Source: a bacterium
GTDB lineage: Bacteria; Patescibacteriota; Minisyncoccia; Phycocordibacterales; CAIZLB01
Direction of reading: 5' to 3'
NCBI GenBank assembly: GCA_037127815.1
Contig: JBAXXP010000001.1
Span: 16,936-80,935 of the forward strand
DNA: 64,000 bases
Within the stretch, counting starts at the first letter, position 1; each line of letters starts with the position of its first letter. Below the pieces are notes generated by a model. The model had not been told where the DNA came from. It did not search any database and worked only from the letters and a program-made list of their open reading frames with translations. The position numbers and the translations under genes were made by a program. This document shows positions 18,780 to 54,657 of this stretch, piece by piece.

Positions 18780-19709
18780 TTAGACCTTCAAATACTTCTT
18801 CACCGCCAAATAACTTGAAACAGCACCGAGAATTAGTCCTGTTCCAACAACAACCATAAACATCTGTCCAAAATTTGAAACATAGTAGCTAAAGATATTT
18901 AGCCCAGTTCCAAGATTAAACGTAAGCGGACCAACATAATAAGTCATTGGATATAATAGAATCAAGGTTATAATTCCAGCTACGGCACCATACATTAAAC
19001 CAACAGTAACAAACGGACCTCTAATATACATTTCACTAGCACCAACTAATCTCATAACAGCAATTTCCTCTCTGAAGATGTAAATCGCCAATCTAACGGT
19101 ATTAAATGTTATTAAAATTGAAACGATTGCAAAGAACGTCACCACAATTGTTCCAAGCTTCCTTGAAGAATCCATTATTCTATTAAGCGCATCAATTGCT
19201 TGTTTATTGTTAGAATAGTTTACTCTATCAACAATACCCGCGCCATTTCCATCGACACCAGTTTTCTGACTATCCAAGAATTTTACGATTGACTCATATT
19301 GTGAAGGATTCTTTGCTCTAATATTAAAGCTAGCTCCAAGTGGGTTTGCCCCAATTTCATCTAATGCTTGAAGTGTAAGCTCATCATCTTGATGTCTCTT
19401 TCTAAATTGAGTTAATGACTCCTCTCTTGAAACAAATGTAGCTGAAGCAACTTCTGGCAAATTCTTAATAGACTTTTGAAGTGAAGCTATGTCTTCATCG
19501 CTTGCGGATTGAGTTAAATAAACATTAACATCAACCTTACTTTCAATTGATTTCAATGTCGATGTTAGCATCGCGCCAATAAAGATGATTGAAGATATGA
19601 CGAGTAGTGTCACAATCATCACGAGAACCGATGCCAGAGAAACTGATCCGTTTCTCCAGAAACTTACAAAACCTGACTTTAATGTTCTTTTTATATTTGT
19701 CCAAATCAT
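18780..19709 (-). CDS. ftsX: Cell-division ABC transporter permease FtsX
   Basis: 309 aa. FtsX topology: TM1, a large extracytoplasmic loop, then three C-terminal transmembrane helices. It lies in the ftsE-ftsX arrangement. Confidence 0.8.
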   Translation of the reverse strand: MIWTNIKRTLKSGFVSFWRNGSVSLASVLVMIVTLLVISSIIFIGAMLTSTLKSIESKVDVNVYLTQSASDEDIASLQKSIKNLPEVASATFVSREESLTQFRKRHQDDELTLQALDEIGANPLGASFNIRAKNPSQYESIVKFLDSQKTGVDGNGAGIVDRVNYSNNKQAIDALNRIMDSSRKLGTIVVTFFAIVSILITFNTVRLAIYIFREEIAVMRLVGASEMYIRGPFVTVGLMYGAVAGIITLILLYPMTYYVGPLTFNLGTGLNIFSYYVSNFGQMFMVVVGTGLILGAVSSYLAVKKYLKV

Positions 19710-19766
19710 AAGTTTATTATAACCCCATATGTGGGAATTACAAAATCATGAAAAATAGATATACGG

Positions 19767-20303
19767 TTAGTTTCCAGCACAATATGACCGGTCCCAGACA
19801 TAAGGATCCGTTGGACCCACCAATTCCTTATTTAAATAAGAAATACCCACGTCTATAGGATTGTTTTGTTTATCAAGTACATACAAATTAAAATAATATT
19901 CGTTAAAGGATCTTTTACCCCCACAATCATAACCCCAACTACTATCCCAAGATAAAGGAGAAAGGTAGCTAACATTAACTGTGCCATAATTTGGGATAGT
20001 TTTTAGAATAGATATTAAATCTCCATTATACATTTTTTTTAACTGTAGATCAGCCGTAATATAAGTTGTAAAACCTCCGTCACTCCATACTGTATCACCA
20101 GGATCAAAATTAACATCACATTCACCATACTGACACAACGAAGAGGATGGGTAGTGACCGTAAGCTGTTCTGTACACTTCCAAAGACTTCATGAACTCCT
20201 CAAGAGAACTTTTAACCTTGGACATTTGCGCTTTTTGCCTAGCTATATTAACAGAAGCCAACACAATAGATGAAAGCAAGGCAATAATCGATATAACCAC
20301 CAA
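19767..20303 (-). CDS. Type IV pilin-like protein (mature domain). Its class-III signal peptide and ATG lie upstream in a different frame, across a 9-nt homopolymer
   Basis: This frame continues upstream as ...KTSKGGGGNSKKAG|FTLIELLVVISIIALLSSIVLA, the canonical prepilin G|FTLIE cleavage motif, with no in-frame start codon. The ATG at 20381-20383 (minus strand) is in the +1 frame across the poly-G tract. Confidence 0.6.
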   Translation of the reverse strand: MVVISIIALLSSIVLASVNIARQKAQMSKVKSSLEEFMKSLEVYRTAYGHYPSSSLCQYGECDVNFDPGDTVWSDGGFTTYITADLQLKKMYNGDLISILKTIPNYGTVNVSYLSPLSWDSSWGYDCGGKRSFNEYYFNLYVLDKQNNPIDVGISYLNKELVGPTDPYVWDRSYCAGN

Positions 20304-20343
20304 AAGCTCAATTAAAGTGAATCCTGCTTTTTTACTATTACCA

Positions 20344-20352
20344 CCCCCCCCC
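20344..20352. repeat. Homopolymeric tract, C9 on the plus strand and G9 on the minus strand, inside the prepilin leader coding region
   Basis: Counted directly: 20344-20352 are all C. With G10 or G7 the upstream ATG (MNIFKNKKLARGGGGNSKKAG|FTLIE...) would be in frame with the pilin. Confidence 0.7.
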
Positions 20353-20414
20353 TTGCTAGTTTTTTGTTTTTGAAAATATTCATTTTACTAGTTTTTCAGG
20401 TTTTTTTCTTTTTA

Positions 20415-21095
20415 TTACACAACAAACTCCCCTGTCTCACTATCCATAACAATCGCACCATCCTTCATTGAAATAACTCTTTTACCAACATGATCCACCA
20501 CTCCAGTGTTATGTGTAGTTAGGATGACGGTTGTTCCAAGATCATTGATCTTTTTAAGAATCTGAATAATCTCATAGGCGGTCTTTGGATCTAGATTTCC
20601 AGTTGGCTCATCGGCAATAATAATGTCTGGTTGATTAACAATAGCTCTTGCGATAGCCACTCTCTGCTTCTCTCCACCTGAAAGTTGGTGAGGAAAGTTA
20701 TGCATTTTATTACCAAGATCAACTAACTCTAGAACATGAGGAACATCAGCATGAATCTCTTCCTCATTTCTTCCTGCGGCTTCCATTGCAAAAGCTACGT
20801 TCTCATAGGCAGTTTTGTCGGATAATAATCTAAAATCCTGAAACACAGTTCCAACACGCCTTCTGTATTCATTCATATCAGACTTTCTTATTCCATGAAT
20901 ATCAATATTTTCAAAGGTTATAATTCCCTCTGTAGGTTTCTCCTCCGCTAAGATCATTTTAAGCAAAGTTGTCTTTCCAGCACCTGAGTGCCCCACAATT
21001 GAAACAAACTCTTTTGGTTTGATTAATAATGAAACATTATCTAACGCAAATGTATTATCAGCGTATTTTTTTGAGACTTTGTCGAGGAATAACAT
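20415..21095 (-). CDS. ftsE: Cell-division ATP-binding protein FtsE
   Basis: 226 aa. Walker A GHSGAGKTT, ABC signature LSGGEKQRVAIARA, Walker B IIIADEPTGNLD. Confidence 0.9.
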   Translation of the reverse strand: MLFLDKVSKKYADNTFALDNVSLLIKPKEFVSIVGHSGAGKTTLLKMILAEEKPTEGIITFENIDIHGIRKSDMNEYRRRVGTVFQDFRLLSDKTAYENVAFAMEAAGRNEEEIHADVPHVLELVDLGNKMHNFPHQLSGGEKQRVAIARAIVNQPDIIIADEPTGNLDPKTAYEIIQILKKINDLGTTVILTTHNTGVVDHVGKRVISMKDGAIVMDSETGEFVV

Positions 21096-21137
21096 ATAGA
21101 GATATTATAACCCCATATGCGGTTTTTACAAAATGCT

Positions 21138-22040
21138 TTATTCCGCAAAGAACTTTTTCTCTGCCTGTATAAAATCGTCCAGATCTCCACTTAAAACATT
21201 CTCCACCTTACTAGTCTCCTCCCCAGTCCTATGATCCTTAACCATTTTATATGGATGAAGTACATATGATCTTATCTGATTCCCCCACTCGGCATCCGTA
21301 GTCTTGCTCACATATAAACCTTTTTCTTTTGCCAGTCTTTCTTCTTCTTGATGTGCATATATTTTGGCCTTCAACATTGCAATTCCTTTTTCTCTATTCT
21401 GTAACTGCGAACGTTCAGTTGTAACATGCACAGACATTTTTGTTGGCTTATGAACAATCCTAACTGCAGTTTCCCTTTTATTTACATTCTGTCCCCCAGG
21501 ACCTCCGGCTCTTGCATAGGAGTATTCCAATTCATCTTCTGGAATTTCAATATCAACTTCCCTTTCAAATTTTGGTACAACCTCAACCATAGAAAAACTT
21601 GTATGTCTTAATTGTTTTGAATTAAACGGAGAAAGTCTAACAAGCCTATGCACTCCTGACTCATGTTTTAAAGTTCCGTAAGCGTTCTTTCCATCTATGT
21701 CAAAAGAGACATTTCTGTATCCTCCGTGATCATTTTTGTGTTCGTGAATCAAGGTCATACTCCAGCCTTTTTTTGAGATGAACTTCTGATACATTTCAAA
21801 TAGCATTCTAGAGAAATCTTCTGAATCATCCCCTCCAGCTCCTGAGAAGATTGTAATAATAGCCGAGCCTCCGTCATAAGGGCTTCCACCAAGACCGCTT
21901 GCAAGCTCTGTTTTTAGGTCCTGAAGCTCTTTTATTGTAGCCTGCGCTGTTGTTGAATCATTCCAAAAATCAACAGCGTTCATTGCTGATTCTATTTCAA
22001 TTATTCTAGCTTCTTTTTCTTTTTTGTTTAGATTATTCAT
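21138..22040 (-). CDS. prfB: Peptide chain release factor 2 (compact, 300 aa). No programmed-frameshift signature found upstream
   Basis: The SPF tripeptide (RLSPFNSKQ), specific to RF2, and the GGQ motif (GGPGGQNVNK) are present. The N-terminus aligns to E. coli RF2 from about residue 25 onward. Domain 1 is shortened. Confidence 0.85.
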   Translation of the reverse strand: MNNLNKKEKEARIIEIESAMNAVDFWNDSTTAQATIKELQDLKTELASGLGGSPYDGGSAIITIFSGAGGDDSEDFSRMLFEMYQKFISKKGWSMTLIHEHKNDHGGYRNVSFDIDGKNAYGTLKHESGVHRLVRLSPFNSKQLRHTSFSMVEVVPKFEREVDIEIPEDELEYSYARAGGPGGQNVNKRETAVRIVHKPTKMSVHVTTERSQLQNREKGIAMLKAKIYAHQEEERLAKEKGLYVSKTTDAEWGNQIRSYVLHPYKMVKDHRTGEETSKVENVLSGDLDDFIQAEKKFFAE

Positions 22041-22246: not shown

Positions 22247-22271
22247 GCCCGAGCCTTAAAACCGCTCGGGC
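22247..22271. terminator. Hairpin GCCCGAGC-cttaaaacc-GCTCGGGC straddling the stop codon of the MazF-like gene
   Basis: 8-bp perfect stem. The TAA stop (22256-22258) lies in the loop. The upstream arm on the minus strand encodes the last residues, PERF. Confidence 0.4.
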
Positions 22272-22675
22272 TTAAGGTTTGATTTTATTTTAATCAGATC
22301 TTTTATAGACCTCTGTATCATTGCGAAATCTTTGTCTGACAAATATCCGATATGAGTGTCTAGCCTTTTTGTATCCAAAACCCTAAGTTGAGAGATTATA
22401 ACAGACTGCTCAGTATTTTTCAGTAAGACCTTCACATAATAGATATTGTCTTTATTTTTAGTACTCATTGGTATTCCCCAAAAAATGTTATTATTGAATT
22501 TTTTGAATACCAAAACAGGCCTTCGAAATATATACCCTTTTCCGTTTTCTTCATCCCCAACATTCTCCCCCAGTGCGCACCATCGAACCTCACCTTCTTT
22601 AATATAGATTCCCTTCCTTTCTTTTTTATCCAAATTAATTTTCACATATATCCAATCAATAAATATTTTTAGCAT
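22256..22675 (-). CDS. MazF/PemK-like endoribonuclease-fold protein (toxin-like), solitary, with an N-terminal extension
   Basis: 139 aa. The core VRWCALGENVGDEENGKGYIFRRPVLVFKKFNNNIFWGIPMSTKNKDNIYYVKV fits the MazF/Kid pattern W-x-D/L..G.E..G..RP.lV.......(V/I)P.T(S/T). No antitoxin-like ORF is adjacent. It is a paralog of 56296-56712. Confidence 0.55.
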   Translation of the reverse strand: MLKIFIDWIYVKINLDKKERKGIYIKEGEVRWCALGENVGDEENGKGYIFRRPVLVFKKFNNNIFWGIPMSTKNKDNIYYVKVLLKNTEQSVIISQLRVLDTKRLDTHIGYLSDKDFAMIQRSIKDLIKIKSNLKPERF

Positions 22676-22759: not shown

Positions 22760-22835
22760 TGGAGCCAATGGACGGGATCGAACCGTCGGCCTGCACGTTA
22801 CGAATGTGCCGCTCTACCAACTGAGCTACATCGGC
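22760..22835 (-). tRNA. tRNA-Thr (anticodon CGU)
   Basis: Sequence GCCGATGTAGCTCAGTTGGTAGAGCG...TTCGTAA...GGTTCGATCCCGTCCATTGGCTCCA closely resembles E. coli tRNA-Thr(CGU). CCA is encoded. Confidence 0.8.
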
Positions 22836-29899: not shown

Positions 29900-29961
29900 T
29901 GCAGAAAAATAATCACAAAAAAAAGAGCCCTATTGCTAGGACTCTTTTTATTGTTTCTTTG

Positions 29962-30033
29962 CGCGGCTGATGGGTGCTGACCCCACGGCCTCTCCCGTGA
30001 CAGGGGAGTGCTCTACCGTTGAGCTACAGCCGC
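29962..30033 (-). tRNA. tRNA-Asp (anticodon GUC). CCA not encoded. Unusual T-loop (GTCAGCA)
   Basis: GCGGCTGTAGCTCAACGGTAGAGCACTCCCCTGTCACGGGAGAGGCCGTGGGGTCAGCACCCATCAGCCGCG. The anticodon loop CTGTCAC matches E. coli tRNA-Asp, and the discriminator is G. Confidence 0.7.
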
Positions 30034-30632
30034 ATTTTCATGAATCCTTCGAAAATAAGCTTTTTTCTGTCCAGATAAAGCTTACTCGTCGTATTATACA
30101 TGATTTTATAAATTTTCAAAGAGTCTCGGGTACTATACTGTAATCTACTATAATTTCCACTTCTAAGGTTAAATAAACTTCCACCGTCCAAACCTAAAGA
30201 ATTAAGCATATTAAATAGATTATTTAAGAACATTTTACTAGCAGAAGTAAAGGCTACAAACATCACGGATGTTGGTTTTTTTCTTGTTTTATTAGTATGC
30301 CCTACCCAGATATTTCCATCCCCATCAAAATACCCTCTAATAAAATCTCCTTCATATTTTTTTGGAATGGTAGGAATATCCATTCTTAATGACTTATTTG
30401 GGGTAAGTCCAAGGAGTACAAGGTCATTAAACATTTCTTTGCTTCCAATTTGGACCCTATATACAGACCCCGTTTCTGATTTTATTTCAGATATTTTATG
30501 TGGTAATTTCATTACTTCAGCAATAGAAATAAGAAGTTCCCTGTCAGCCGTATAGAAAGAGATAAAATGAGTATTTCTTTTAGTTTTAATTATGTTACCA
30601 TCTGCAAATAAAAAACCTAAAATATAAGCCAT
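30024..30632 (-). CDS. Free-standing double-motif LAGLIDADG homing endonuclease
   Basis: 202 aa. Motif 1 LGFLFADGNI and motif 2 IRGYFDGDGNI are spaced about 100 aa apart, typical of monomeric two-domain LAGLIDADG enzymes. The 3' end overlaps the first ~10 nt of tRNA-Asp. Confidence 0.8.
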   Translation of the reverse strand: MAYILGFLFADGNIIKTKRNTHFISFYTADRELLISIAEVMKLPHKISEIKSETGSVYRVQIGSKEMFNDLVLLGLTPNKSLRMDIPTIPKKYEGDFIRGYFDGDGNIWVGHTNKTRKKPTSVMFVAFTSASKMFLNNLFNMLNSLGLDGGSLFNLRSGNYSRLQYSTRDSLKIYKIMYNTTSKLYLDRKKLIFEGFMKMRL

Positions 30633-30740
30633 GTTAGGCGACCATTTTTTGAAAAAGTTGTTGTTGTTAATTTTAAATACTGGAGTGGTATTATTATATA
30701 TTCGAAAAAATTAATGACAATTGCGAACATTAAAAAAGTG

Positions 30741-30814
30741 TGTCGACGGGAGGGATCGAACCTCCGACCTTGGGCTTATGAGTCCCACGCTCTAACCAAC
30801 TGAGCTACGTCGAC
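30741..30814 (-). tRNA. tRNA-Met (anticodon CAU), elongator-type or tRNA-Ile2-type (G1-C72 paired). CCA not encoded
   Basis: GTCGACGTAGCTCAGTTGGTTAGAGCGTGGGACTCATAAGCCCAAGGTCGGAGGTTCGATCCCTCCCGTCGACA. Anticodon loop CTCATAA. Confidence 0.75.
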
Positions 30815-33314: not shown

Positions 33315-33379
33315 ACTTATATTATACAGCTTTATCGAAAAAAATCGACAACATAACGCCAAATACAATCAAACAATGA

Positions 33380-38164: not shown

Positions 38165-38797
38165 TTAGTATTGTACATCCAGACCTCTTTCTACCGTTCT
38201 TGGATTTGCAGTATTACAACCTATTTTATCGGCTGTTACACCAGAATTATATCCTCTAGAAATAATTCTGGTGTAGGGTACGTTTTCTGTATTACCCAAA
38301 TCATCTGTTGCACTATTATAACCTTTAGCAATCACGACTTTTGCACAAGACGGATATCCATCGGTATTATTTGAATAATCAATAATTAAAGTTGAGGTTG
38401 CTGCATCAAAAGACACCATTTTTGATGCATATATTTTACCAGCTCCGCAACGAATAGTTGCATTTTCGGTGGGTATAGGTATAGGTGTAGGTGTAGCTGC
38501 GACAACAGTAGAAGATGCAGAAAATGGACCATCATCCAAAACATTTGTTCCATCAGCATTTTTTACATCCCAAAACTGTACACATTCAGAGCCAGAGTCA
38601 GCTGCATAAAAAGCAATCTGTGAATCTTTTCCTGAGCCTGCAAGAAGTAATTGCTTCAAAATAATATTCCCAATAGAAAAACCAACAGCAAGCAGAAGGC
38701 TTGAGACAACCATAGCCACAAAGAGTGTAAAACCAGAAGATCTGCTTTCTCTTGTGCTGTTCTTTTTGTTTTTCATCAGTTTATTTAAATTAATCAT
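38165..38797 (-). CDS. Type IV pilus minor pilin (prepilin-type N-terminal domain)
   Basis: ...SRSSG|FTLFVAMVVSSLLLAVGFSI prepilin cleavage and methylation motif. First of four consecutive pseudopilin genes. Confidence 0.55.
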   Translation of the reverse strand: MINLNKLMKNKKNSTRESRSSGFTLFVAMVVSSLLLAVGFSIGNIILKQLLLAGSGKDSQIAFYAADSGSECVQFWDVKNADGTNVLDDGPFSASSTVVAATPTPIPIPTENATIRCGAGKIYASKMVSFDAATSTLIIDYSNNTDGYPSCAKVVIAKGYNSATDDLGNTENVPYTRIISRGYNSGVTADKIGCNTANPRTVERGLDVQY

Positions 38798-38818
38798 ATT
38801 GTAATTATATTACTTAAA

Positions 38819-39478: not shown

Positions 39479-39483
39479 ATTTA

Positions 39484-40125: not shown

Positions 40126-40167
40126 TTTTTTATTATTTACTATTTTTCAATAGAACCTCACATTATT

Positions 40168-40869: not shown

Positions 40870-40910
40870 TAGCTATATTGTAACACAACAGAAAACAAGA
40901 AAATAGTAAA

Positions 40911-41915
40911 TTATGAATTAAATATCGCAAGAAAATCCATTACAGAAATATTTAAGAAGAATACAATCAACAGTCCAAGTATTAGGAATGGTGCAAACGG
41001 TATCTCACTTTGAAATTTAACAGAATACAGTTGCTTGAAATCACTTTGTATTCCCATTCTATTCTTTCTGTTTGCCGTCTTTTTTGATATAAATTTCATC
41101 ACAGCAACGCCTCCCATTGCAATAAGTGATATTATTGCTCCAATCCAGAAGGCAAAAACAACAGCTGAGAAGCCATATTTAACTCCAAGAAGCCATCCGA
41201 TTCCTAACCCGAGCTTTGCATCACCAAGTCCCATCCACTTCCCTCCTGAGATAAGCCAAATGAAATAGAATGGAAATGCAACGAAGATTCCAGAAAGTAG
41301 CATCATATACCCATCAAAGTTCAGTGGTATGCCAAAAAGAATACTAGAAGTTTCATAATTGAAGCTGAGAAAAATCTGAAGAAATGCTATAGCAGCAAAT
41401 GCGTATGAGAATTCATCGGGAATAATTTTATGCTTGAAATCATAAACTGTCATCAGAACCAGCAAACACATAATTATTAAAGATACCCCTACAGATACAC
41501 CAAAAATTAATGGCGACACCTCAAGTATTGCTGCGTTTTTTAAATATACAAACAAAAACAGAACGGCAGTGAAAATCTCTACCAATACATATTGTGGAGA
41601 TATCTTACTTTTACACGTTCTACATTTTCCTTTTAGGAATATCCAACTGAAAATTGGGAACAGGTCTATTACAGACAATGTTCTTCTGCACGATGGACAT
41701 TTAGAGCGACCCCCCAACCCCCTCCCTGTATTAAATCTATATAAAACTACATTCAAGAAACTTCCAATAATGGCGCCAAAAATAAAAAAGGCAAATGATA
41801 AGAAAATGGTCATGTCTATATAATACATTATTATTGGTGTGCTGGCGATTGGGTAGTTTCCAGCTGTATTTTGTGATTTTAGAACAACAAAAAAACCGAG
41901 CCGGAATATCTCCAA
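40911..41915 (-). CDS. pilD: Prepilin peptidase / N-methyltransferase PilD (A24 family)
   Basis: GAIIGSFLNVVLYR TM1 motif. A CPSC...CRTC tetracysteine Zn site in the first cytoplasmic loop. Catalytic Asp-containing helices. The likely true start is MTIFLSF (41813), since the track ORF adds 34 N-terminal residues. Confidence 0.8.
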   Translation of the reverse strand: MEIFRLGFFVVLKSQNTAGNYPIASTPIIMYYIDMTIFLSFAFFIFGAIIGSFLNVVLYRFNTGRGLGGRSKCPSCRRTLSVIDLFPIFSWIFLKGKCRTCKSKISPQYVLVEIFTAVLFLFVYLKNAAILEVSPLIFGVSVGVSLIIMCLLVLMTVYDFKHKIIPDEFSYAFAAIAFLQIFLSFNYETSSILFGIPLNFDGYMMLLSGIFVAFPFYFIWLISGGKWMGLGDAKLGLGIGWLLGVKYGFSAVVFAFWIGAIISLIAMGGVAVMKFISKKTANRKNRMGIQSDFKQLYSVKFQSEIPFAPFLILGLLIVFFLNISVMDFLAIFNS

Positions 41916-41948
41916 ACTCGGTTTTTAATTCTCCCAAACTATGTCAAA

Positions 41949-42374
41949 TTAACTTCCACAAACACCCCCCGTAACTGTATTTCCTGTTGTAGAAGCTGAT
42001 TTTCCAGTACTATCTACACACCAATATGCGCCAGACGTCTTTGCTGCTACAGCCCAAGCTGTAGTTGATGCGGTACAATAAACGGAATTTACTGGTGAAG
42101 TTTTTGTCTTAACATCCGTTATAAGAGTTTTTAAGCCTGTATCTGCGATAAAAATACCACCGGTACAGTCAGCAGAACTACTGTAACTTCCAGCTGTCGA
42201 ATAATACAACTCCGCCTGAGCTCTCATGTTTGAAAGCTCAGATTGGATAGCTGCATCCTGTCCTTTTGTTCTCGCTGTTGTAAGTGAAGCTAACACAACA
42301 GATGAAAGAATACCGATGATAGCAATAACTACCAAGAGCTCGATCAATGTGAAACCTTTATTTGAATTTTTCAT
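41949..42374 (-). CDS. pilA: Major type IV pilin (PilA-like)
   Basis: 141 aa. Short leader MKNSNKG|FTLIELLVVIAIIGILSSVVLASL. A C-terminal Cys pair (C...C) forms a D-region disulfide. The size is typical of a major pilin. Confidence 0.7.
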   Translation of the reverse strand: MKNSNKGFTLIELLVVIAIIGILSSVVLASLTTARTKGQDAAIQSELSNMRAQAELYYSTAGSYSSSADCTGGIFIADTGLKTLITDVKTKTSPVNSVYCTASTTAWAVAAKTSGAYWCVDSTGKSASTTGNTVTGGVCGS

Positions 42375-42458
42375 AAACTATTTTTAAATTTAATTGTTAT
42401 AACAATGAGACTGGCCGAAAACCGAAACTGATTTTTAACTTGATTTTGATTTCAAAAT

Positions 42459-42489
42459 TACGTGAGTGTCTTAAATAGACATTCACGTA
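42459..42489 (-). terminator. Hairpin (TACGTGAGTGTC-ttaaata-GACATTCACGTA) between pilC and pilA, followed by a T-rich tract on the minus strand
   Basis: 12-bp stem with one G.U. On the minus strand the stem is followed by ATTTTGAAATC. It is a candidate terminator or attenuator that separates the pilA transcript. Confidence 0.35.
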
Positions 42490-42580
42490 TGTTTAATTAT
42501 ATACTATATATACAAATAGGCTATTTTGATGTGTGGATAGGTCATTTGCGTCCATTACTTTTTTCCTTCTTTCCCAATTA

Positions 42581-43792
42581 CTACATAGATGAAGACACGT
42601 TGTAAATAGGAATCAAAACTGACGCGAGCAAGAATCCAACACCAAGACCAAGTGCAACAATCATAATAGGTTCAATCAAGTCCACAAGTGTATCAACTGC
42701 TTGCATAACCTCTCTTTGATAGAATTTAGCAAGAGTCTTTAGAATTCCACCCACATCTCCCGTCTCCTCTCCAACCTTAACCATCTGTACCATAATTCCT
42801 GGAATTTCTTTTTGATAGGGCATCAATGAATCAGACAATGACTTACCACCTCTAACCGCTTCCAATGCGTCATTCAACAAATCTTCATAAACTTTATTGT
42901 CCACAACCTTACTTGTAAGTTCAAGTGCTTTAACCATAGGAACACCAGAAATTAGCTGTGTGTTCATGTTATCTGCAATTCTTGAAAGATACAGTTTCTT
43001 ATACAAACTACTTACATAAGGAATCTCTAATTTAAATTTTGCAAACGAGTCCTTGCCAGCTGGTGTTCTTGCGTAATAAATAAGTAAAATAATTCCTGCA
43101 ATGAACACCGCCAAAAAGAAGAATCCATATCTCACCATAAAATTACTAAGTCCAATAACAATTTTTGTATAAATAGGAACCTCTTGTCCAGAATCAAGAA
43201 TAATTGAAGAGATTTTTGGAATAACCACAGTAAGCATCAGAATCATAACGGCAAAGAATGTGAAGATAACAAAGGCTGGATAAATTAAGGCATTCTTAAC
43301 CTTTGATGAAACTTCATAACTTCTATCAAGATAGTCAGCTAGGTATTCAAATGTCTCATCCAACTTACCAGACTCCTCCCCCGCCTTGATCATGTTTGTA
43401 TAAAAAGAGGAGAAAACTCTTGGATGCTTTGACAAAGCAGATGACATGGATGTACCACCCTGAATATCTTCTGCAACTTCTGAAAGAATTATTCTAAGAT
43501 TCTTATTCTCCATTTCCCCCGCTAGCAATCTAAAGATTCTAAGAGCAGAAACCTGCGCAGTAAAGAGTGTAGCCAACTGACGAGACAAAATAACAATATC
43601 CTTGTTTGAGATACCTGTACCAAAAATAGCCAAATCTCTACTTAAAAGACCTTTATCTTCAGCTGGCTTAATTGAGGAAATTGTCAGATTTCTTCTTTGA
43701 AGAGAGTTTATGGCAATATCAACATTGATTGCATCAATTGTTCCTTCACTCTCGGCTCCACCTTCTCCTATTGCTTTGTATTTGAATAACAT
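42581..43792 (-). CDS. pilC: Type IV pilus platform protein PilC (GspF family)
   Basis: 403 aa. Two GspF repeats with three transmembrane helices each. Confidence 0.85.
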   Translation of the reverse strand: MLFKYKAIGEGGAESEGTIDAINVDIAINSLQRRNLTISSIKPAEDKGLLSRDLAIFGTGISNKDIVILSRQLATLFTAQVSALRIFRLLAGEMENKNLRIILSEVAEDIQGGTSMSSALSKHPRVFSSFYTNMIKAGEESGKLDETFEYLADYLDRSYEVSSKVKNALIYPAFVIFTFFAVMILMLTVVIPKISSIILDSGQEVPIYTKIVIGLSNFMVRYGFFFLAVFIAGIILLIYYARTPAGKDSFAKFKLEIPYVSSLYKKLYLSRIADNMNTQLISGVPMVKALELTSKVVDNKVYEDLLNDALEAVRGGKSLSDSLMPYQKEIPGIMVQMVKVGEETGDVGGILKTLAKFYQREVMQAVDTLVDLIEPIMIVALGLGVGFLLASVLIPIYNVSSSM

Positions 43793-43812
43793 CTTTTTTA
43801 GATTTGTTTAAA

Positions 43813-44874
43813 TTATACCATTCTTTCTAGATTTTTTGGATTCAAAGAATGCTTATATGCAGATTCAATTGAAATTTCCCCACGTCTTACTAGCTCCGCA
43901 AGGGACCTATTCATATCAATCATACCATCACCCATTCCCGTTTCAATTACGGTATTTATTTCATATGATCTTTTCTCTCTAATTAAGTTTGCTGTTGCGT
44001 TGTTTGCAATCATAAGCTCAAAGGCAGGAACCATTCCACCTGAAATTTTTGGAATTAATCTTTGTGAAAATATTCCGGTTAAGGATGATGCCAGCTGTGT
44101 TCTAATTTGATCCTGTTGTTCAGGTGGAAATGAATCTATAATTCTATCAATGGTTTGCGATGCATTATTAGTATGAAGTGTTGAAAGAACTAAGTGACCA
44201 GTCTCGGCTGCTGTTACCGCAGCTGATATTGTCTCCGTATTCCTCATCTCTCCCAATAGAATAACGTTAACGTCTTGACGCAAAACTGAGGTTAGTGCAG
44301 CTTCAAAACTATTTGTATCAACAAAAATCTCTCTTTGGTCAATAATAGATTTCTTTTGTTCATACAAATATTCAATGGGGTTTTCAATTGTGATAATATG
44401 TTCTGCTCTTTCTTGATTAATAAGTTCAACCATAGACGCCAGGGTTGTTGACTTGCCTTGTCCAACTGGACCAACTACCAAAAAGAAACCTTGCTTCATT
44501 CTGGCAAAGCTTTCCAGAATTTCTGGTAACCCTAACTCCTTAAGTGTCTTTATTTTATTTTGAATAAGTCTAAGTGCAATAGTATGAGCACTTCTTTGTA
44601 TATACGCATTACCTCTAAATCTTGACACTTCATTAAACTGATACGAGAAGTCCAACTCTTTATTGTCTAAAAATCTTTTACGAGAAGCTTCATCTATCAT
44701 TAAATTTAACAAGGAATCAATATCATCATGTGTAAGAAGTGGTTTTTTAACTAATGGAATTAAAACCCCATTAACTCTAACTGTTGGATGTCTACCCTCA
44801 GACAAGTGTAAATCAGACGCCCCCTCTAGGGTAACTGTTGATAAAAGGTCTTTTAATTCTTGTTCGTAATTCAT
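43813..44874 (-). CDS. pilT: Twitching-motility retraction ATPase PilT
   Basis: 353 aa. Walker A GPVGQGKST, Asp box, Walker B and His box. Its size is PilT-like and it lacks the long PilB N-domain. Confidence 0.85.
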   Translation of the reverse strand: MNYEQELKDLLSTVTLEGASDLHLSEGRHPTVRVNGVLIPLVKKPLLTHDDIDSLLNLMIDEASRKRFLDNKELDFSYQFNEVSRFRGNAYIQRSAHTIALRLIQNKIKTLKELGLPEILESFARMKQGFFLVVGPVGQGKSTTLASMVELINQERAEHIITIENPIEYLYEQKKSIIDQREIFVDTNSFEAALTSVLRQDVNVILLGEMRNTETISAAVTAAETGHLVLSTLHTNNASQTIDRIIDSFPPEQQDQIRTQLASSLTGIFSQRLIPKISGGMVPAFELMIANNATANLIREKRSYEINTVIETGMGDGMIDMNRSLAELVRRGEISIESAYKHSLNPKNLERMV

Positions 44875-44898
44875 ATTTTTTATTTTAATAGTTTAAAA

Positions 44899-45315
44899 TT
44901 ATATAGAAACACCTACCCTTCTATCTTTTGTTCTCTCTAAAAGAGCAAAAACTTCTGTGACAATTTCTGATGGAATAGATGTTGCCTTAACAATATAACC
45001 ATCAACACCAAGACTTTTGGCCTTCTCAATATCAGATGGCTGTCCTTGATTACTAAGCATCATAATAGCAGCTCTCTTTGCTAGGCCGTCCACCCTGATT
45101 GCGTTCAACGCCTCTATGCCATCCATTACAGGCATTACAACATCCAGAAGAATGACATCAGGTTCGTATCCATCCTTTAGTTTGGTAACAGCAACCAAAC
45201 CATTGCCAGCTAAAGTAACATCAAATCTATTATTGGTAAATTTTATTGAATACATATTCAATAAAAACTTATCATCATCCACAATCATTACTTTAAATGG
45301 TATATCTCCGTTCAT
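44899..45315 (-). CDS. Single-domain response regulator (CheY-like receiver) embedded in the pilus locus
   Basis: 138 aa. Phospho-acceptor Asp in ILLDVVMPVMDG, and DD at the N-terminus (MIVDDDKF). Confidence 0.75.
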   Translation of the reverse strand: MNGDIPFKVMIVDDDKFLLNMYSIKFTNNRFDVTLAGNGLVAVTKLKDGYEPDVILLDVVMPVMDGIEALNAIRVDGLAKRAAIMMLSNQGQPSDIEKAKSLGVDGYIVKATSIPSEIVTEVFALLERTKDRRVGVSI

Positions 45316-45406
45316 GTTTTTATTATATCACAAAACAATTACAAAAAAATGTAGATAGTAACATTCCAACATAAAAAAAACACTTCTCTCTACGCAATAG
45401 ATCTTA

Positions 45407-47134
45407 CTAAACTTTACTGATTTCTTCCATCGGAATAACTTTATTTAAAGCCTTGATTGTAGCATCCTCTTTCATTAAAATCATACCTTGAGTTCTTGCA
45501 TATTTTGTAATTGCAATTTCAGTTGGCTCTTTTAGAATAATTTCCTGCATTGTTTTATCCACCTCAAACATTTCAGTTACAGCGATTCTTCCTTTTGTTC
45601 CACGTGGACAATCTGGAGTGGGACTAATTTTATAGACGTCCTTCATTTCAGGAATAACCCCTCTAAATTCTGTTGGGATTTCTTCAAGGAATTTGTCAAA
45701 AATTGTCTTAATACTTCCTTCTACTGGAATTGTCGTAACAGCAGATTCATATGACTTACCAACAAGACGCTGTGCCATTCCCAAAATCAACGTAGGAGCA
45801 ATAAGATAAGGGTCAATTCCCATGTCCACAAGTCTAGGGATAATACCAACAGCTGAGTTGGTGTGAATTGTTGATAGCACCAAGTGACCAGTAAGAGCGG
45901 CTTGAATAGCCAACTCCGCCGTCTCCTTATCTCTAATCTCTCCAACCATTATAATATCTGGGTCCTGGCGAAGAGTAGTACGCAATCCAGTTGCAAAAGT
46001 ATATCCAATTTCTGGTCTAACCTGAGACTGACTTAATCCCTCAATATTATATTCAACCGGATCCTCAAGTGACAGCACATTGTTTTCTTCCAAATCAAGC
46101 TCCTTAACCATAGAATAAAGGGTTGTTGTCTTTCCAGATCCTGTAGGACCAGAAATAAGGATTAACCCATAAGGCTTATCTAATGCCTCTTTAATTAATT
46201 TAAGATTTCTCTCTGGAAACCCTAACTCATCAAGTTTTTGAACACTTTTTTGTTGATCCAAGATACGCATTTCAACTTTTTCTCCATAATATGTTGGAAA
46301 TGTAGATACACGAAAGTCAATCTTTCTTCCGTCAATTCTTGCGGAAAAACGGTTATCTTGTGGCTTACGTTTTTCATCGAGCTTAATATTGGAAAGAATT
46401 TTAATACGCGCAACAAGAGCGTCGTGAACTTTTGCAGGCAAAACAATACTTGTATATAAAACACCGTCTACTCGGAAACGAACACGAACTCTATCCTTCA
46501 TTGGTTCAATATGAACGTCAGATACTCCTCCCTCAATTGCATAACGTAAGATTGTTGCAACAATTTTTGTAACTGGCGCGTCTTCAATTATATTAGGTGC
46601 TCCCCCAACAGCAGGAGCCTTACCAAGATCACCTCTATCCTTCATCATTTCAACCTCTTCTGCTGAAAATTCAGTCTCTAAATCACCGAGAGCTTTATTA
46701 ACTTCTCCGGCAATTCCATTATAAGCGGCTAATGCCTGGGTGAAATCATCCTCAGAGATAAGGAAGATTTTAAAAGGCATATTTGTCTTATTTGAAATAA
46801 AATTAAGAGCGTCTCTCGCCTCAATATTCTCAGGATCCACAATTCCAACCTCAAGAACTCCATCGGAAATACCAAGTGGAATAATTTTATAGTGATTTGC
46901 AGATTCTTCTGGAATATATTTTAAAACATCAAAAGCAATGTCCTTTCCGTCAAGTTCTCTTGTTGGTATTTTAAGATACTCACCTTTTGCTTTTACTATT
47001 GCTGTATTACTAATCTGTTTGGCACGCAAAATATCCTCTACAGATTGACCTGTGGTTGTTGCTTCATCTGATATGTATGGGATATCCTCCGCTGATATCA
47101 CATTTTGCTTTGCTAATACGTCTAAAAAACTCAT
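45407..47134 (-). CDS. pilB: Type IV pilus assembly ATPase PilB (GspE family)
   Basis: 575 aa. N-terminal GSPII_E_N domain. Walker A GPTGSGKTT, Asp box, Walker B, His box. Confidence 0.9.
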   Translation of the reverse strand: MSFLDVLAKQNVISAEDIPYISDEATTTGQSVEDILRAKQISNTAIVKAKGEYLKIPTRELDGKDIAFDVLKYIPEESANHYKIIPLGISDGVLEVGIVDPENIEARDALNFISNKTNMPFKIFLISEDDFTQALAAYNGIAGEVNKALGDLETEFSAEEVEMMKDRGDLGKAPAVGGAPNIIEDAPVTKIVATILRYAIEGGVSDVHIEPMKDRVRVRFRVDGVLYTSIVLPAKVHDALVARIKILSNIKLDEKRKPQDNRFSARIDGRKIDFRVSTFPTYYGEKVEMRILDQQKSVQKLDELGFPERNLKLIKEALDKPYGLILISGPTGSGKTTTLYSMVKELDLEENNVLSLEDPVEYNIEGLSQSQVRPEIGYTFATGLRTTLRQDPDIIMVGEIRDKETAELAIQAALTGHLVLSTIHTNSAVGIIPRLVDMGIDPYLIAPTLILGMAQRLVGKSYESAVTTIPVEGSIKTIFDKFLEEIPTEFRGVIPEMKDVYKISPTPDCPRGTKGRIAVTEMFEVDKTMQEIILKEPTEIAITKYARTQGMILMKEDATIKALNKVIPMEEISKV

Positions 47135-47144
47135 ATTTATTTTA

Positions 47145-47687
47145 TTATTGTGGAAGTGCCACTGGAACAGCTTTCTTTTTAGTAGCGCTTGATGTTGCGG
47201 CCGCTGGAGCGCTTGATGTTGCAGTTTTTGGAACGAGCACTGGAGATTTTACAGCGGAGGATGTAGCGGTTGAAGTTCCAGCCGTATTTGTAATATTACC
47301 AGATATATCCTGGAAACTACCTGATGATTGTCCGGAATCAGATCCGATTGGTGCAAAAGGATTTGGTCTACCAATTTCTTGGACTTGTATTTCTAGGTGA
47401 TTATCAACTAACCCTAAAAATATAGGGTCCTTAAAGTAGGCCACTTTTAAATCAACACTTTGTATTGCAAGTAATTGATCAACGAAGCTCTTAGCTAATT
47501 CATTATTAGGCACAACAGAACCGGTAGATGCAGCGCCTGTAGTTGATGTATCAACAGAAGTTTTCTGAAGTGTTGAAGAGTCCGTAGTTGGAGCGCCGCT
47601 TGTGTAGATAGTATAAGCAATAAAAGCAACAATCAAAACTACGATTATGATGATTAAATATTTAAATTTTTTAAGTGTTTCAATCAT
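47145..47687 (-). CDS. Pilus-locus bitopic membrane protein with a Ser/Thr-rich region (PilP-like position), function unknown
   Basis: 180 aa. N-terminal transmembrane helix, then Thr/Ser-rich low complexity and a conserved-looking middle segment. Confidence 0.35.
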   Translation of the reverse strand: MIETLKKFKYLIIIIVVLIVAFIAYTIYTSGAPTTDSSTLQKTSVDTSTTGAASTGSVVPNNELAKSFVDQLLAIQSVDLKVAYFKDPIFLGLVDNHLEIQVQEIGRPNPFAPIGSDSGQSSGSFQDISGNITNTAGTSTATSSAVKSPVLVPKTATSSAPAAATSSATKKKAVPVALPQ

Positions 47688-47691
47688 GTTT

Positions 47692-48249
47692 TTATTTTAG
47701 CCAATAAGTCTGCAGGGTCACATTAAAATCATATTTATCATTGTCTGCTGCTGTAAAGGAAATTTCTGAAACATCAACTAGACGAAGGTTATCTTCAAGA
47801 CTTTGTAGAAATAGAATAAACTGATCATATGATGTTGTGACGCCAAAGTTAAGCGCGATTGTTCCATATTTTTTGTTATCAGACCCTATGCTTGGTGAAG
47901 CATTCCCTGTAGCTCCAGTCTTAGATGCACCTCCGATAACCTTTGCGCCTCTTATATTTTGAGACAAAACAAGATTGGCGATGTGTTGAATATCGATAAT
48001 AAGCTTAACGTTTTCTACTCCATCTGGGAGAAACTTATCTAGATTTTTTAATTGAACATCATCAATTTTCTTTCTATCAGATGTCAATTTCTCTCTCTTA
48101 ACCCTTAACTCCATAGCCTTACCGTTTGCTTCATCTAATTTTTGAAGATCAGCTTGCTTTTGCTGAATTAATGCATAGTTTGGATTTATATAGAAAATAA
48201 ACGCAGCTACGGCCGAAGCTATAAAAAATATTTGTGCGAGGGTTTTCAT
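47692..48249 (-). CDS. pilO: PilO-like pilus assembly protein (TM + coiled coil)
   Basis: 185 aa. N-terminal transmembrane helix, a coiled-coil (QQKQADLQKLDEANGKAMELRVKREKL) and a C-terminal domain. It follows the pilN-like gene. Confidence 0.5.
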   Translation of the reverse strand: MKTLAQIFFIASAVAAFIFYINPNYALIQQKQADLQKLDEANGKAMELRVKREKLTSDRKKIDDVQLKNLDKFLPDGVENVKLIIDIQHIANLVLSQNIRGAKVIGGASKTGATGNASPSIGSDNKKYGTIALNFGVTTSYDQFILFLQSLEDNLRLVDVSEISFTAADNDKYDFNVTLQTYWLK

Positions 48250-54427: not shown

Positions 54428-54514
54428 GGAGGATTGGATGAGCGGCTTAAATCAACAGTTTACTAAACTGTCGGCTTGGAAACAGGCCCGTGAGTTCGAA
54501 TCTCACATCCTCCG
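54428..54514 (+). tRNA. Type II (Ser-like, long variable arm, G73) tRNA with apparent anticodon ACU. CCA not encoded
   Basis: GGAGGATTGGATGAGCGGCTTAAATCAACAGTTTACTAAACTGTCGGCTTGGAAACAGGCCCGTGAGTTCGAATCTCACATCCTCCG. The anticodon stem ACAGT/ACTGT gives loop TTACTAA. The loop differs from the tRNA-Ser(GCU) loop TTGCTAA only by G34A. Confidence 0.6.
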
Positions 54515-54657
54515 CAAAATAATGGGCATAGCCCATATATTTTGCGAGAGTGCAGAATAGGTTGCGAAGCGACCGTAATTCTGCCTCCGCAAGTCATATT
54601 ACCCTTAAAATTTGACACCCTCTGTATCTTTGTTAAACTATAGGTACAAATAGACTT

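What the first reader, a model, noticed from the sequence alone, without database searches (positions are those of the whole stretch)
20304..20383. A G9 homopolymer separates the prepilin leader and ATG from the mature pilin frame: candidate slipped-strand phase switch
The pilin-like CDS 19767-20303 continues upstream in frame as KTSKGGGGNSKKAG|FTLIELLVV..., a textbook class-III signal peptide cleavage site. This frame has no ATG, GTG or TTG before an in-frame TAA. The only plausible start, ATG at 20381-20383 (MNIFKNKKLAR...), is in the +1 frame across a run of nine G (plus-strand C, 20344-20352). With 10 or 7 G the gene would read M-N-I-F-K-N-K-K-L-A-R-G-G-G-G-N-S-K-K-A-G|F-T-L-I-E: a complete prepilin. 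A homopolymer sitting exactly at the start of a surface-structure gene is the classical architecture of contingency loci, where slippage gives ON/OFF phase variation. It could equally be a homopolymer sequencing error. The gene sits next to ftsEX, outside the main pilus locus.
Basis: seen in the sequence. Interest (0 to 1): 0.7.

Follow-up and report, generated by a model that had tools for sequence, protein, structure and literature searches.

The report
Poly-G on/off switch in pilin
A run of nine G's in the signal-peptide part of a surface-fibre (type IV pilin) gene of an uncultured ultra-small bacterium puts the gene out of frame here, while otherwise identical genomes from other samples carry ten G's and an intact gene, which is the signature of a classical slippage on/off switch, apparently not yet described in this group of bacteria.

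Summary
On the minus strand, ATG 20383-20381 opens a 23-codon ORF. A G9 run (20352-20344) separates it from a complete type IV pilin frame (G|FTLIE...) that has no start codon of its own.

The in-frame G10 allele exists. It is called as a 205-aa prepilin on 20 contigs from about a dozen samples. The sequenced stretches of these contigs (1.5-20.6 kb) differ from the window only at the tract; one also has a C>G change 3 nt upstream. G9 recurs in GCA_964417855.1, and a PGAP-annotated MAG gives the pilin no protein record.

The tract is a codon-usage outlier. It lies in an insertion that lengthens the leader. It is kept as G8 at the same leader position in two homologues that are only about 32-47% identical.

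The pilin lies between ftsE and ftsX. Those genes are about 90% identical to relatives, while the pilin is 40-44%.

A scan of species genomes found the same layout (ATG, poly-G, G|FTLIE) in many low-GC genomes, about half out of frame.

Best reading: a slipped-strand contingency switch, with the window in the OFF state. A homopolymer miscall cannot be excluded without reads. The mechanism is known (Neisseria pilC, Bifidobacterium pilins), so this is a new member of a known kind.

The parts
20381..20383 (-). ATG start codon of the prepilin, used in both states
   Evidence: The same ATG starts the 205-aa protein P0121/P0001 in the G10 assemblies.
20344..20352 (-). G9 homopolymer (codons 11-14 of the leader), the proposed slippage tract. 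G9 is OFF; G10, G7 or G13 would be ON.
   Evidence: G10 is found in L001-L010, L144 and L150; G9 in the window and L011. It is the only G/C run longer than 6 in the window.
20322..20383 (-). Region coding the class III signal peptide (leader), from the ATG to Gly-1. It is intact only with G10: MNIFKNKKLARGGGGNSKKAG.
   Evidence: The leader is 21 aa against a median of 10 aa in 120 homologues. The extra residues are the tract-bearing insertion.
20312..20314 (-). TAA that ends the 23-codon ORF from the ATG in the G9 (OFF) state
   Evidence: frame 2 translation MNIFKNKKLARGGVVIVKKQDSL*.
19767..20321 (-). Mature type IV pilin (184 aa plus stop), starting FTLIELLVVISIIALL. It has no start codon of its own.
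   Evidence: Pfam N_methyl at E=1.5e-8. The AlphaFold model has pLDDT 88.7, with a helix at 24-75 followed by a beta domain. Cys154 and Cys202 are conserved.
20415..21095 (-). ftsE, whose stop lies 31 nt upstream of the pilin ATG. It probably supplies the transcript that carries the pilin.
   Evidence: A promoter-like site TTGTAA-16-TATAAT lies at 21131-21104, and none was found directly before the pilin ATG.
18780..19709 (-). ftsX, 57 nt downstream of the pilin stop, with its own promoter-like site at 19743-19716
40911..41915 (-). Prepilin peptidase (PilD, peptidase A24), which would cleave the leader after Gly-1. It acts in trans.
   Evidence: Pfam A24_N_bact at 3.7e-29 and Peptidase_A24 at 2.8e-9.
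41949..48249 (-). Main type IV pilus locus: 141-aa pilin, PilC, PilT, response regulator, PilB, and a PilO-like protein. None of these genes carries a G/C tract.
   Evidence: for the Pfam hits; for the absence of other runs.

Best explanation
The locus is an orphan type IV pilin gene of a Parcubacteria-like member of the Patescibacteria (CPR). Its expression is set by the length of a poly-G tract inside the leader (class III signal peptide) coding region.

With G10, the ATG, the basic leader and the G|FTLIE mature pilin form one ORF. PilD, encoded in the same window, can then process the product, and the pilus machinery can use it. With G9, as in this window, ribosomes starting at the only start codon stop after 23 codons. 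The mature-pilin frame has no initiation site, so no pilin is made.

Slipped-strand mispairing during replication adds or removes a G, which gives heritable, reversible ON/OFF switching. The window carries the OFF allele, and most sampled populations carry ON. The switch controls a pilin that evolves far faster than its neighbours. It is therefore probably a surface-exposed subunit under diversifying selection, for example from pilus-dependent phages or through contact with partner cells.

Shown: the sequence anatomy, both alleles in otherwise identical assemblies, conservation of the tract in homologues, the codon-usage anomaly, and the hyper-divergence of the pilin.
Inferred: slippage in vivo, reversibility, the selective agent, and that G9 is a true allele.
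For: 1. Anatomy. The ATG, the G9 and the start-less G|FTLIE frame are all in place, with an N_methyl hit and a pilin-like predicted structure.

2. Both alleles exist.
- The G10 protein P0121 is on 19 contigs, and its variant P0001 on one more.
- These come from JGI 3300020158, 3300020228, 3300021349 and 3300021605; Logan SRR7053308/09/10/532/533 and SRR8517161; ENA ERZ27300065; and NCBI GCA_005795785.1.
- G9 is in the window and in GCA_964417855.1, which matches the window 100% over 6,459 nt.
- The truncated product P0123 is on 3 contigs, with NCBI, ENA and Logan listed as sources.
- The NCBI accessions for FtsX and FtsE are consecutive (MEI6041983, MEI6041984), so the pilin has no protein record in that annotated MAG.

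3. The tract is the only variable site. L002-L010 differ from the window by one gap and no mismatches over 1.5-6.6 kb. L001 differs by one gap plus one mismatch 3 nt from the tract over 20,618 nt.

4. The tract is not needed to encode the protein. GGG makes up 13.6% of Gly codons, and none of the 14 other Gly-Gly-Gly sites in the window uses GGG-GGG.

5. The tract is conserved. P0002 (about 44-47% identical) has ATA GGG GGG GGC. P0022 (about 32-35% identical) has GTA GGG GGG GGC. Both sit after K-L-x in a lengthened leader. Of 120 homologues, 4 have GGG in the leader, and 3 of those write it as G8-G10.

6. The pilin diverges fast. FtsE, FtsX and RF2 are 90-92% identical to those of L015 and L153. 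The pilin is 40-44% identical, and its C-terminal domain 31-33%.

7. The design recurs. In 47 low-GC loci from species genomes, 20 are in frame and 23 are out of frame with an ATG in another frame. Tracts of G9 to G15 occur on the same flanks. A Yonathbacteria pilin is OFF with G8 and would need G9.

8. Assembly behaviour. One Logan contig starts 4 nt after the tract, as expected at a branching site in an assembly graph.
Against: No reads were available, so heterogeneity within one population and reversibility are untested. G9 versus G10 is exactly the kind of difference that sequencing or consensus errors produce, and G-tracts are known to disturb Illumina reads (PMC9187656).

Only two lengths (9 and 10) were seen, and G10 dominates by about 20 contigs to 3. 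The OFF records may all derive from one read set. The other two OFF contigs could not be displayed.

Several of the G10 assemblies (JGI and Logan) may share libraries, so the count of independent samples is lower than the count of contigs. A G9 somewhere in 64 kb is not rare in shuffles (15 of 100). Only one tract lies in the 64 kb, so there is no genome-wide set of such tracts to support the reading.
Confidence: 0.66

Rival explanations
1. Sequencing or assembly artefact. The organism always has G10 and an intact gene. The G9 in this window, and in the identical GCA_964417855.1 contig, is a homopolymer under-call, and the tract has no regulatory role.
For: G10 is in about 20 contigs against 3 for the truncated product. 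The window and L011 are 100% identical and may be one assembly. G-tracts are documented to cause read problems.
Against: No other homopolymer, including A/T runs of 8-10, differs over 20.6 kb, so the assembly is not generally error-prone. The sources recorded for the truncated product include Logan, an assembly pipeline separate from the submitted genome assembly, as well as NCBI and ENA, and a PGAP-annotated MAG gives the pilin no protein record. Even if this G9 were an error, the conserved, codon-atypical tract in three homologues and the ON/OFF mix at similar loci elsewhere would still point to a switch.
Confidence: 0.2
2. Plain pseudogene. A single, non-adaptive frameshift has inactivated a dispensable accessory pilin in this strain. 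The tract is only a mutational weak spot, not a selected switch.
For: The gene lies outside the main pilus locus, which has its own pilins. The syntenic orthologues work without any tract.
Against: There is no second lesion, and the rest of the ORF is identical to the intact allele. The tract is maintained in diverged homologues against codon preference. One slip restores the OFF allele to the intact gene.
Confidence: 0.08
3. Recoding. The G9 gene is expressed as it stands, through programmed -1 ribosomal frameshifting on G GGG GGG or through RNA-polymerase slippage on the G run, which yields the same 205-aa prepilin.
For: In the ATG frame the tract reads AG-G GGG GGG-GTG. This is an in-phase X XXY YYZ heptamer, and a -1 shift gives exactly ...LARGGGGNSKK... 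(derived).
Against: The 98 nt from the tract onward show no structure beyond shuffles (z = 0.00). Near-identical genomes simply carry G10, and the homologues are in frame. The out-of-frame arrangement is therefore not conserved, as it would be for a programmed frameshift. A low level of leaky expression by slippage cannot be excluded.
Confidence: 0.04
4. Alternative start. The pilin is translated from TTG 20303 or from the internal ATG (Met54), as gene callers annotate it (178, 177 or 152 aa).
For: ORF lists and public gene calls use these starts.
Against: These products lack the leader, Gly-1, Phe1 and Glu5, or the whole membrane helix. All of these are invariant in 25 homologues and are needed for prepilin peptidase processing, according to established knowledge of type IV pilins.
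Confidence: 0.02

Closest known systems
Neisseria gonorrhoeae / N. meningitidis pilC phase variation (Jonsson et al. 1991, cited in PMC5953494)
   Same: A genic poly-G tract (G9-20 in the phasome table) switches a pilus-biogenesis gene ON and OFF by frameshift. From my own knowledge, the tract lies in the signal-peptide coding part of the gene. The target is a type IV pilus system.
   Different: PilC is a tip adhesin and assembly factor with a Sec signal, not a pilin with a class III signal peptide. The host is a cultured pathogen in which switching has been measured. Here switching is only inferred from assemblies.
Bifidobacterium breve UCC2003 sortase-dependent pilins bbr_0113 and bbr_1889 (PMC9187656)
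   Same: The start codon and secretion signal are in one ORF and the mature pilin in another, separated by a G-tract. Replication slippage re-frames them, and databases annotate the two halves separately. This is the same layout as here.
   Different: Those are sortase-assembled pilins with a Sec signal and an LPXTG motif, in a high-GC actinobacterium. Slippage there was proven by maximum-depth sequencing.
Poly-G/C contingency genes of Campylobacter jejuni and Helicobacter pylori (own knowledge; H. pylori LPS genes in PMC1599737, listed)
   Same: Small, low-GC genomes in which rare G/C homopolymers of 8-13 nt within surface-structure genes act as ON/OFF switches.
   Different: The targets are mostly glycosyltransferase, flagellar and capsule genes, with dozens of tracts per genome. 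Only one tract is visible in this 64-kb window.
Repeat-driven hypervariation in a Gracilibacterium, also a CPR member (PMC6851277)
   Same: Slippage-type variation in a surface-related gene of a CPR bacterium, noticed through assembly fragmentation.
   Different: That case involves in-frame 9-mer repeats that change protein length. It is not a homopolymer frameshift switch and not a pilin.

Membership tests
Type IV pilin / prepilin (class III signal peptide) | N-terminal methylation and cleavage motif G|F-T-L-I-E with Glu5 | tested here: met
   Pfam PF07963 N_methyl at E=1.5e-8, 34.3 bits against a cut-off of 21.2. G21 to E26 are invariant in 25 homologues.
Type IV pilin / prepilin (class III signal peptide) | Short basic leader with its own start codon in front of Gly-1 | tested here: not met
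   Not met in the window as sequenced (G9): the pilin frame has no start codon. It is met in the G10 alleles, with leader MNIFKNKKLARGGGGNSKKAG.
Type IV pilin / prepilin (class III signal peptide) | Long hydrophobic N-terminal alpha-helix followed by a beta-sheet globular domain | tested here: met
   AlphaFold2 model with pLDDT 88.7, a helix at 24-75 and then six strands. Foldseek matches to solved pilins (C. difficile PilW, PilE, CofA) are only weak, with a best E of 0.03.
Type IV pilin / prepilin (class III signal peptide) | Cognate prepilin peptidase and assembly machinery in the genome | tested here: met
   PilD, PilC, PilT, PilB, a PilO-like protein and further pilins lie at 38165-48249.
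Type IV pilin / prepilin (class III signal peptide) | Cleavage, N-methylation and incorporation into a filament | not testable with these tools
   This needs proteomics or microscopy on an uncultured organism.
Simple-sequence-repeat contingency locus (slipped-strand phase variation) | A homopolymer of about 8 nt or more within the ORF or promoter, whose length sets the frame or expression | tested here: met
   G9 lies between the only ATG and the pilin frame. G10, G7 or G13 restore the frame.
Simple-sequence-repeat contingency locus (slipped-strand phase variation) | Tract length polymorphic among otherwise identical genomes | tested here: met
   G9 in the window and L011, against G10 in L001-L010, L144 and L150. 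No other difference was found, apart from one adjacent substitution in L001. This is at the level of assemblies only.
Simple-sequence-repeat contingency locus (slipped-strand phase variation) | Length heterogeneity within one population, and a high, reversible switching rate | not testable with these tools
   No reads were available. The only hint is a Logan contig that breaks 4 nt after the tract.
Simple-sequence-repeat contingency locus (slipped-strand phase variation) | Tract maintained by selection rather than by coding need | tested here: met
   GGG makes up 13.6% of Gly codons, and 0 of 14 other GGG tripeptides use GGG-GGG. G8 is retained at the same leader position in P0002 and P0022.
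Simple-sequence-repeat contingency locus (slipped-strand phase variation) | The gene encodes a surface or interaction determinant under diversifying selection | tested here: met
   The product is a pilin. It is 40-44% identical to those of relatives, against 90-92% for the flanking FtsE, FtsX and RF2.
Programmed -1 ribosomal frameshift site | In-phase slippery heptamer X XXY YYZ | tested here: met
   G GGG GGG is in phase with the ATG frame.
Programmed -1 ribosomal frameshift site | Downstream stimulatory RNA structure | tested here: not met
   Minimum free energy -19.3 kcal/mol against a shuffle mean of -19.31, z = 0.00.
Programmed -1 ribosomal frameshift site | The two-frame arrangement is conserved in relatives | tested here: not met
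   Near-identical genomes and homologues are in one frame.

The most novel reading that the evidence does not exclude
Poly-G tracts placed in the class III signal-peptide coding region may be a widespread, repeatedly evolved ON/OFF device for type IV pilin genes in small, low-GC, mostly uncultured bacteria. These include Patescibacteria such as this one and a Yonathbacterium, and gut Bacilli/Tenericutes-like MAGs with seven or more such genes per genome. The device would let populations shuffle which hypervariable pilins are displayed. In this Parcubacteria-like lineage the switchable pilin is a conserved resident of the ftsEX operon, which hints at a link between pilus display and the division apparatus.
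Probability: 0.45. Interest if true: 0.65.

Novelty: new member of a known kind. Interest (0 to 1): 0.5.

Why it matters
Type IV pili are thought to be central to how CPR/Patescibacteria attach to partner cells and take up DNA, but nothing is known about how they regulate them. These organisms are uncultured and carry few regulators. A heritable stochastic switch on a fast-evolving pilin would indicate bet-hedging against pilus-targeting phages or changing hosts in these organisms. In the paper library searched here, I found no description of phase variation of this kind for them.

There is also a practical consequence. Such genes are split or dropped by annotation pipelines: here they appear as 152-, 177- or 178-aa fragments or as a pseudogene. 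Pilin repertoires of MAGs are therefore under-counted. The claim can be tested directly with existing public reads.

Tried and rejected
- Metagenome scans. Two DNA-pattern scans of metagenome contigs for this locus with a variable tract found nothing. The pattern itself works, matching 19 loci already fetched, so that collection simply lacks these contigs.
- Hidden OFF contigs. Two attempts to display the other two contigs that carry the truncated OFF product failed, because the tool collapses them into one place. Their tract length and source run remain unseen.
- Programmed frameshift. No downstream RNA structure was found, so this was rejected as the main mechanism.
- Alternative starts. TTG 20303 and Met54 were rejected because they remove invariant processing residues.
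- P0106. Its leader ends in GGGGG, but the DNA reads GGA GGA GGG GGT GGT, which is not a homopolymer.
- Fold search. The PDB search gave only weak pilin hits and no finer classification.
- RF2. I suspected a programmed frameshift in the neighbouring RF2 gene. There is none: it is a single 300-aa ORF, and the 353-aa orthologue call is an over-extension across a tRNA-Thr.
- Contig ends. Contig ends near the gene in several assemblies fall at varied positions inside ftsE, so they are not evidence about the tract, except for L151.
- Failed call. One get_proteins call failed on the id limit.

Full report
**1. The observation**

- ATG at 20383-20381 opens MNIFKNKKLARGGVVIVKKQDSL, which ends at TAA 20314-20312.
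- A run of exactly nine G occupies 20352-20344.
- One frame over, an open frame reads ...NEYFQKQKTSKGGGGNSKKAG|FTLIELLVVISIIALL... and runs to the stop at 19769-19767.
- Between the TAG/TAA at 20390-20385 and the cleavage-site glycine, that frame has no ATG, GTG or TTG.
- With one more G, the ATG and the pilin join into a 205-aa prepilin.

The repaired protein hits Pfam N_methyl at E=1.5e-8. Its AlphaFold model (pLDDT 88.7) shows the pilin shape: a long N-terminal helix at residues 24-75 followed by a beta domain. Matches to solved pilins are weak.

The run is the only G or C homopolymer longer than six in the 64 kb, which is 36.6% GC. Dinucleotide-preserving shuffles still produce a G9 somewhere in the window in 15 of 100 trials. 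The run alone is therefore not the argument. Its position, recurrence and variability are.

**2. Context**

The gene lies between ftsE (20415-21095) and ftsX (18780-19709), with prfB upstream. It starts 31 nt after the ftsE stop and ends 57 nt before ftsX.

Promoter-like TTGTAA-16-TATAAT sites precede ftsE and ftsX but not the pilin. The pilin is therefore probably read from the ftsE transcript, and ftsX has its own promoter. This is an inference from consensus matches only.

A full type IV pilus locus lies 18-28 kb away in the window: a PilO-like protein, PilB, a response regulator, PilT, PilC, a 141-aa pilin, the PilD prepilin peptidase, and four minor-pilin-like genes. A further 447-aa pilin-like gene lies at 32025-33368. 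None of these carries a G/C tract.

Named LigA relatives at 65-68% identity are Parcubacteria, Patescibacteria, Taylorbacteria and Pacebacteria. The organism is therefore a Parcubacteria-like CPR bacterium. NCBI labels its proteins only "[bacterium]".

**3. Both alleles exist**

A protein search returned the in-frame product at 100% identity (P0001). Its cluster also holds P0121, which is exactly the G10 translation of the window, and two truncated gene calls: P0122 (177 aa) and P0123 (152 aa, starting at Met54).

*The ON allele (G10).*
- P0121 is on 19 contigs and P0001 on one.
- The DNA of eleven of these places shows G10.
- The sources are JGI samples 3300020158, 3300020228, 3300021349 and 3300021605; Logan assemblies of SRR7053308, -09, -10, -532, -533 and SRR8517161; ENA ERZ27300065; and NCBI GCA_005795785.1.

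*The OFF allele (G9).*
- P0123 is on three contigs, and the sources recorded for it are NCBI, ENA and Logan.
- The one contig I could read, GCA_964417855.1 contig CAYQJB010000001.1 (412,981 bp), has G9.
- That contig is 100% identical to the window over 6,459 nt.
- The NCBI protein accessions of the window's FtsX and FtsE are consecutive (MEI6041983.1 and MEI6041984.1). In that PGAP-annotated MAG the pilin therefore has no protein record, which is what is expected for a frameshifted pseudogene.

*The tract is the only difference.*
- L002-L010 differ from the window by one gap and zero mismatches over 1.5-6.6 kb.
- L001 differs over 20,618 nt by that gap plus one C>G change 3 nt upstream of the tract.
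- No A/T homopolymer, of which there are runs up to 10, differs. The assemblies are therefore not generally poor at homopolymers.
- One Logan contig (SRR7053536) begins 4 nt after the tract, as happens at a branching point in an assembly graph.

**4. Is the tract a selected feature?**

Three lines say yes.

- *Codon use.* GGG makes up 13.6% of glycine codons. None of the 14 other Gly-Gly-Gly sites in the window, including a Gly6 stretch, uses two adjacent GGG codons.
- *Position in an insertion.* Leaders of 120 homologues have a median length of 10 aa. The syntenic orthologues have MKTKNLKKAG (P0003) and MNIINKKRKTG (P0012), with no tract. The window's 21-aa leader equals such a leader plus the stretch ..KLARGGGGNS...
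- *Conservation.* The two other homologues with a similar insertion keep the tract at the DNA level. P0002 (about 44-47% identical) has AAA CTG ATA GGG GGG GGC. P0022 (about 32-35% identical, from a 36% GC contig) has AAG CTG GTA GGG GGG GGC. Each is a G8, and each is in frame. Given the codon usage, writing the first two of three Gly codons as GGG has a probability near 0.02 per gene.

**5. What kind of gene is switched?**

FtsE, FtsX and RF2 are 90-92% identical between the window and two relatives (L015, L153). The pilin lodged among them is only 40-44% identical. Its N-terminal helix is 65-77% identical and its C-terminal domain 31-33%.

The pilin is a conserved resident of this neighbourhood. 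The gene order is ftsE-pilin-ftsX in the window and in L153, and prfB-pilin-ftsE-ftsX in L015. A fast-evolving surface subunit is the usual kind of gene placed under contingency control.

**6. The design is general**

In the 47 loci with GC below 0.36, the states were as follows:
- 20 are in frame with an upstream ATG;
- 23 are out of frame, with an ATG 10-40 nt upstream of the tract in another frame;
- 3 have the ATG after the tract;
- 1 lies at a locus end and could not be classified.

These loci come mostly from gut "uncultured Bacilli" or Tenericutes-like MAGs, several with many loci each. Families with the same flanks carry G9, G10, G11, G12 or G15. In one family only G15 is ON, while three G10 and two G11 copies are OFF.

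A Yonathbacteria MAG (L040) reads ATG CAT ATG GGA AAG ACT ATG G8 TGGGCGCGACAGA GGG TTC ACC. It is one G short of an intact MHMGKTMGGGGRDRG|FTLIEL. This makes an evolved switch class far more likely than a coincidence. These are single assemblies, however, and the census is incomplete.

**7. Mechanism and rivals**

*Best explanation (confidence 0.66).* Slipped-strand mispairing at the tract toggles the reading frame between the initiation codon plus leader and the mature pilin. The window holds the OFF allele.

*Sequencing or consensus error (0.2).* This remains a real possibility. The difference is a single base in a G run, G-tracts disturb Illumina reads, G10 dominates, and the OFF records may stem from one data set. 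Against it stand recovery of the truncated product from more than one source, Logan among them, a PGAP MAG with no protein record for the pilin, and the absence of any other homopolymer discrepancy.

*Plain pseudogene (0.08).* This does not explain why the tract is conserved or why the ORF is otherwise intact.

*Programmed -1 frameshifting or transcriptional slippage (0.04).* It is formally possible, because G GGG GGG is an in-phase slippery heptamer. But there is no stimulatory structure (z = 0.00), and relatives are simply in frame.

*Alternative starts (0.02).* These delete invariant residues.

**8. Comparison with known systems**

The mechanism is classical. Neisseria pilC carries a genic G9-20 tract (PMC5953494, citing Jonsson 1991). 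[quoted passage not shown]

Three things differ here:
- the gene class, a type IV pilin with the tract inside its class III signal peptide;
- the host, a Patescibacterium;
- the genomic setting, inside the ftsEX operon.

Full-text searches found no paper that links phase variation of this kind to Patescibacteria, CPR or Saccharibacteria pilins. The nearest CPR report is in-frame 9-mer repeat hypervariation in a Gracilibacterium. I therefore file this as a new member of a known kind.

**9. Verdict**

The locus is very probably a poly-G contingency switch on an orphan, hypervariable type IV pilin, seen here in the OFF state. Interest is moderate at 0.5: the mechanism is ordinary, the organism and gene class are new, and the claim can be tested directly with public reads. 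The decisive missing datum is the distribution of tract lengths in raw reads.

Noticed in passing
L020-L136 (genome-contig hits with GC below 0.36), e.g. L021, L023, L031, L034, L066, L075 and L081, all from MAG Lapin-020__bin127: Gut 'uncultured Bacilli' or Tenericutes-like MAGs carry many prepilin genes with a G9-G15 tract in the leader, after an SD-like site and an ATG. Of 47 loci, 20 are in frame and 23 out of frame, and the same flanks occur with different tract lengths. This looks like a multi-gene pilin phasome.
   Followed up: partly
L040 3236-3276 (minus strand), Candidatus Yonathbacteria RIFOXYC2_FULL_47_9: A second CPR pilin has the same layout in the OFF state: ATG..ATG followed by G8. 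One more G would give MHMGKTMGGGGRDRG|FTLIEL.
   Followed up: partly
window 18780-21095; L015 4001-6333; L153 3263-5588: A pilin gene is a conserved resident of the ftsEX neighbourhood in this lineage. It lies between ftsE and ftsX in the window and L153, and between prfB and ftsE in L015. It is 40-44% identical, while FtsE and FtsX are about 90% identical. The reason for the linkage is unknown.
   Followed up: partly
L001 about 10028 (equivalent to window 20356): The only substitution in 20.6 kb between the JGI contig Ga0194052_1000108 and the window is a C>G change 3 nt upstream of the tract (Ala>Gly in the leader). It could be a real variant or a miscall next to the homopolymer.
   Followed up: no
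L151 position 1 (Logan SRR7053536_1469858): This contig begins 4 nt after the tract. Several other assemblies break at varied positions inside ftsE, 150-360 nt upstream of the pilin ATG.
   Followed up: partly
L012 1-60 (ENA ERZ4223250, coverage 2.4): A slightly diverged strain (3 mismatches) has G10, but the sequence upstream of codon 5 is different and has no ATG. It may be a chimeric contig end or a rearranged start.
   Followed up: no
P0022 (L142 936-1670) and P0054: Two pilin homologues share an odd, Cys/His-rich 25-30 aa stretch (ILQxFCHC...AR..TE.T..CQKL) between the tract or N-terminus and the cleavage site. It is unlike normal leaders and could be a conserved nucleotide element read through by gene callers.
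   Followed up: no
L052 3266-3317 and L074 2592-2641 (Patescibacteria KTG4t2parc3, one 623-kb contig): Two paralogous pilins have a G10 and a G8 tract after an upstream ATG. A second in-frame ATG gives MKQG|FTLIEL downstream of the tract, so the tract may switch between two leaders or affect ribosome binding.
   Followed up: no
window 21138-22040 and 22760-22835: RF2 is a single 300-aa ORF with no programmed frameshift site. The 353-aa orthologue call (P0148) is an over-extension that translates across a tRNA-Thr gene.
   Followed up: yes
window 21104-21131 and 19716-19743 (minus strand): Identical promoter-like sites TTGTAA-16-TATAAT end only 8 nt and 6 nt before the ATG of ftsE and ftsX. This suggests leaderless or near-leaderless mRNAs.
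   Followed up: no
window 54428-54515 (+): ARAGORN calls a tRNA-Ser with the unusual anticodon ACT. Rfam's tRNA model does not report it at the gathering score, so it may be a false positive.
   Followed up: no
window 30024-30632 (minus strand): A LAGLIDADG homing-endonuclease ORF sits between tRNA-Asp (29961-30033, overlapping by 10 nt) and tRNA-Met (30740-30814). Similar ORFs lie near ftsX in L015.
   Followed up: no
window 22256-22675 (minus strand): A PemK/MazF-like toxin gene lies between tRNA-Thr and prfB, with no obvious adjacent antitoxin ORF.
   Followed up: no
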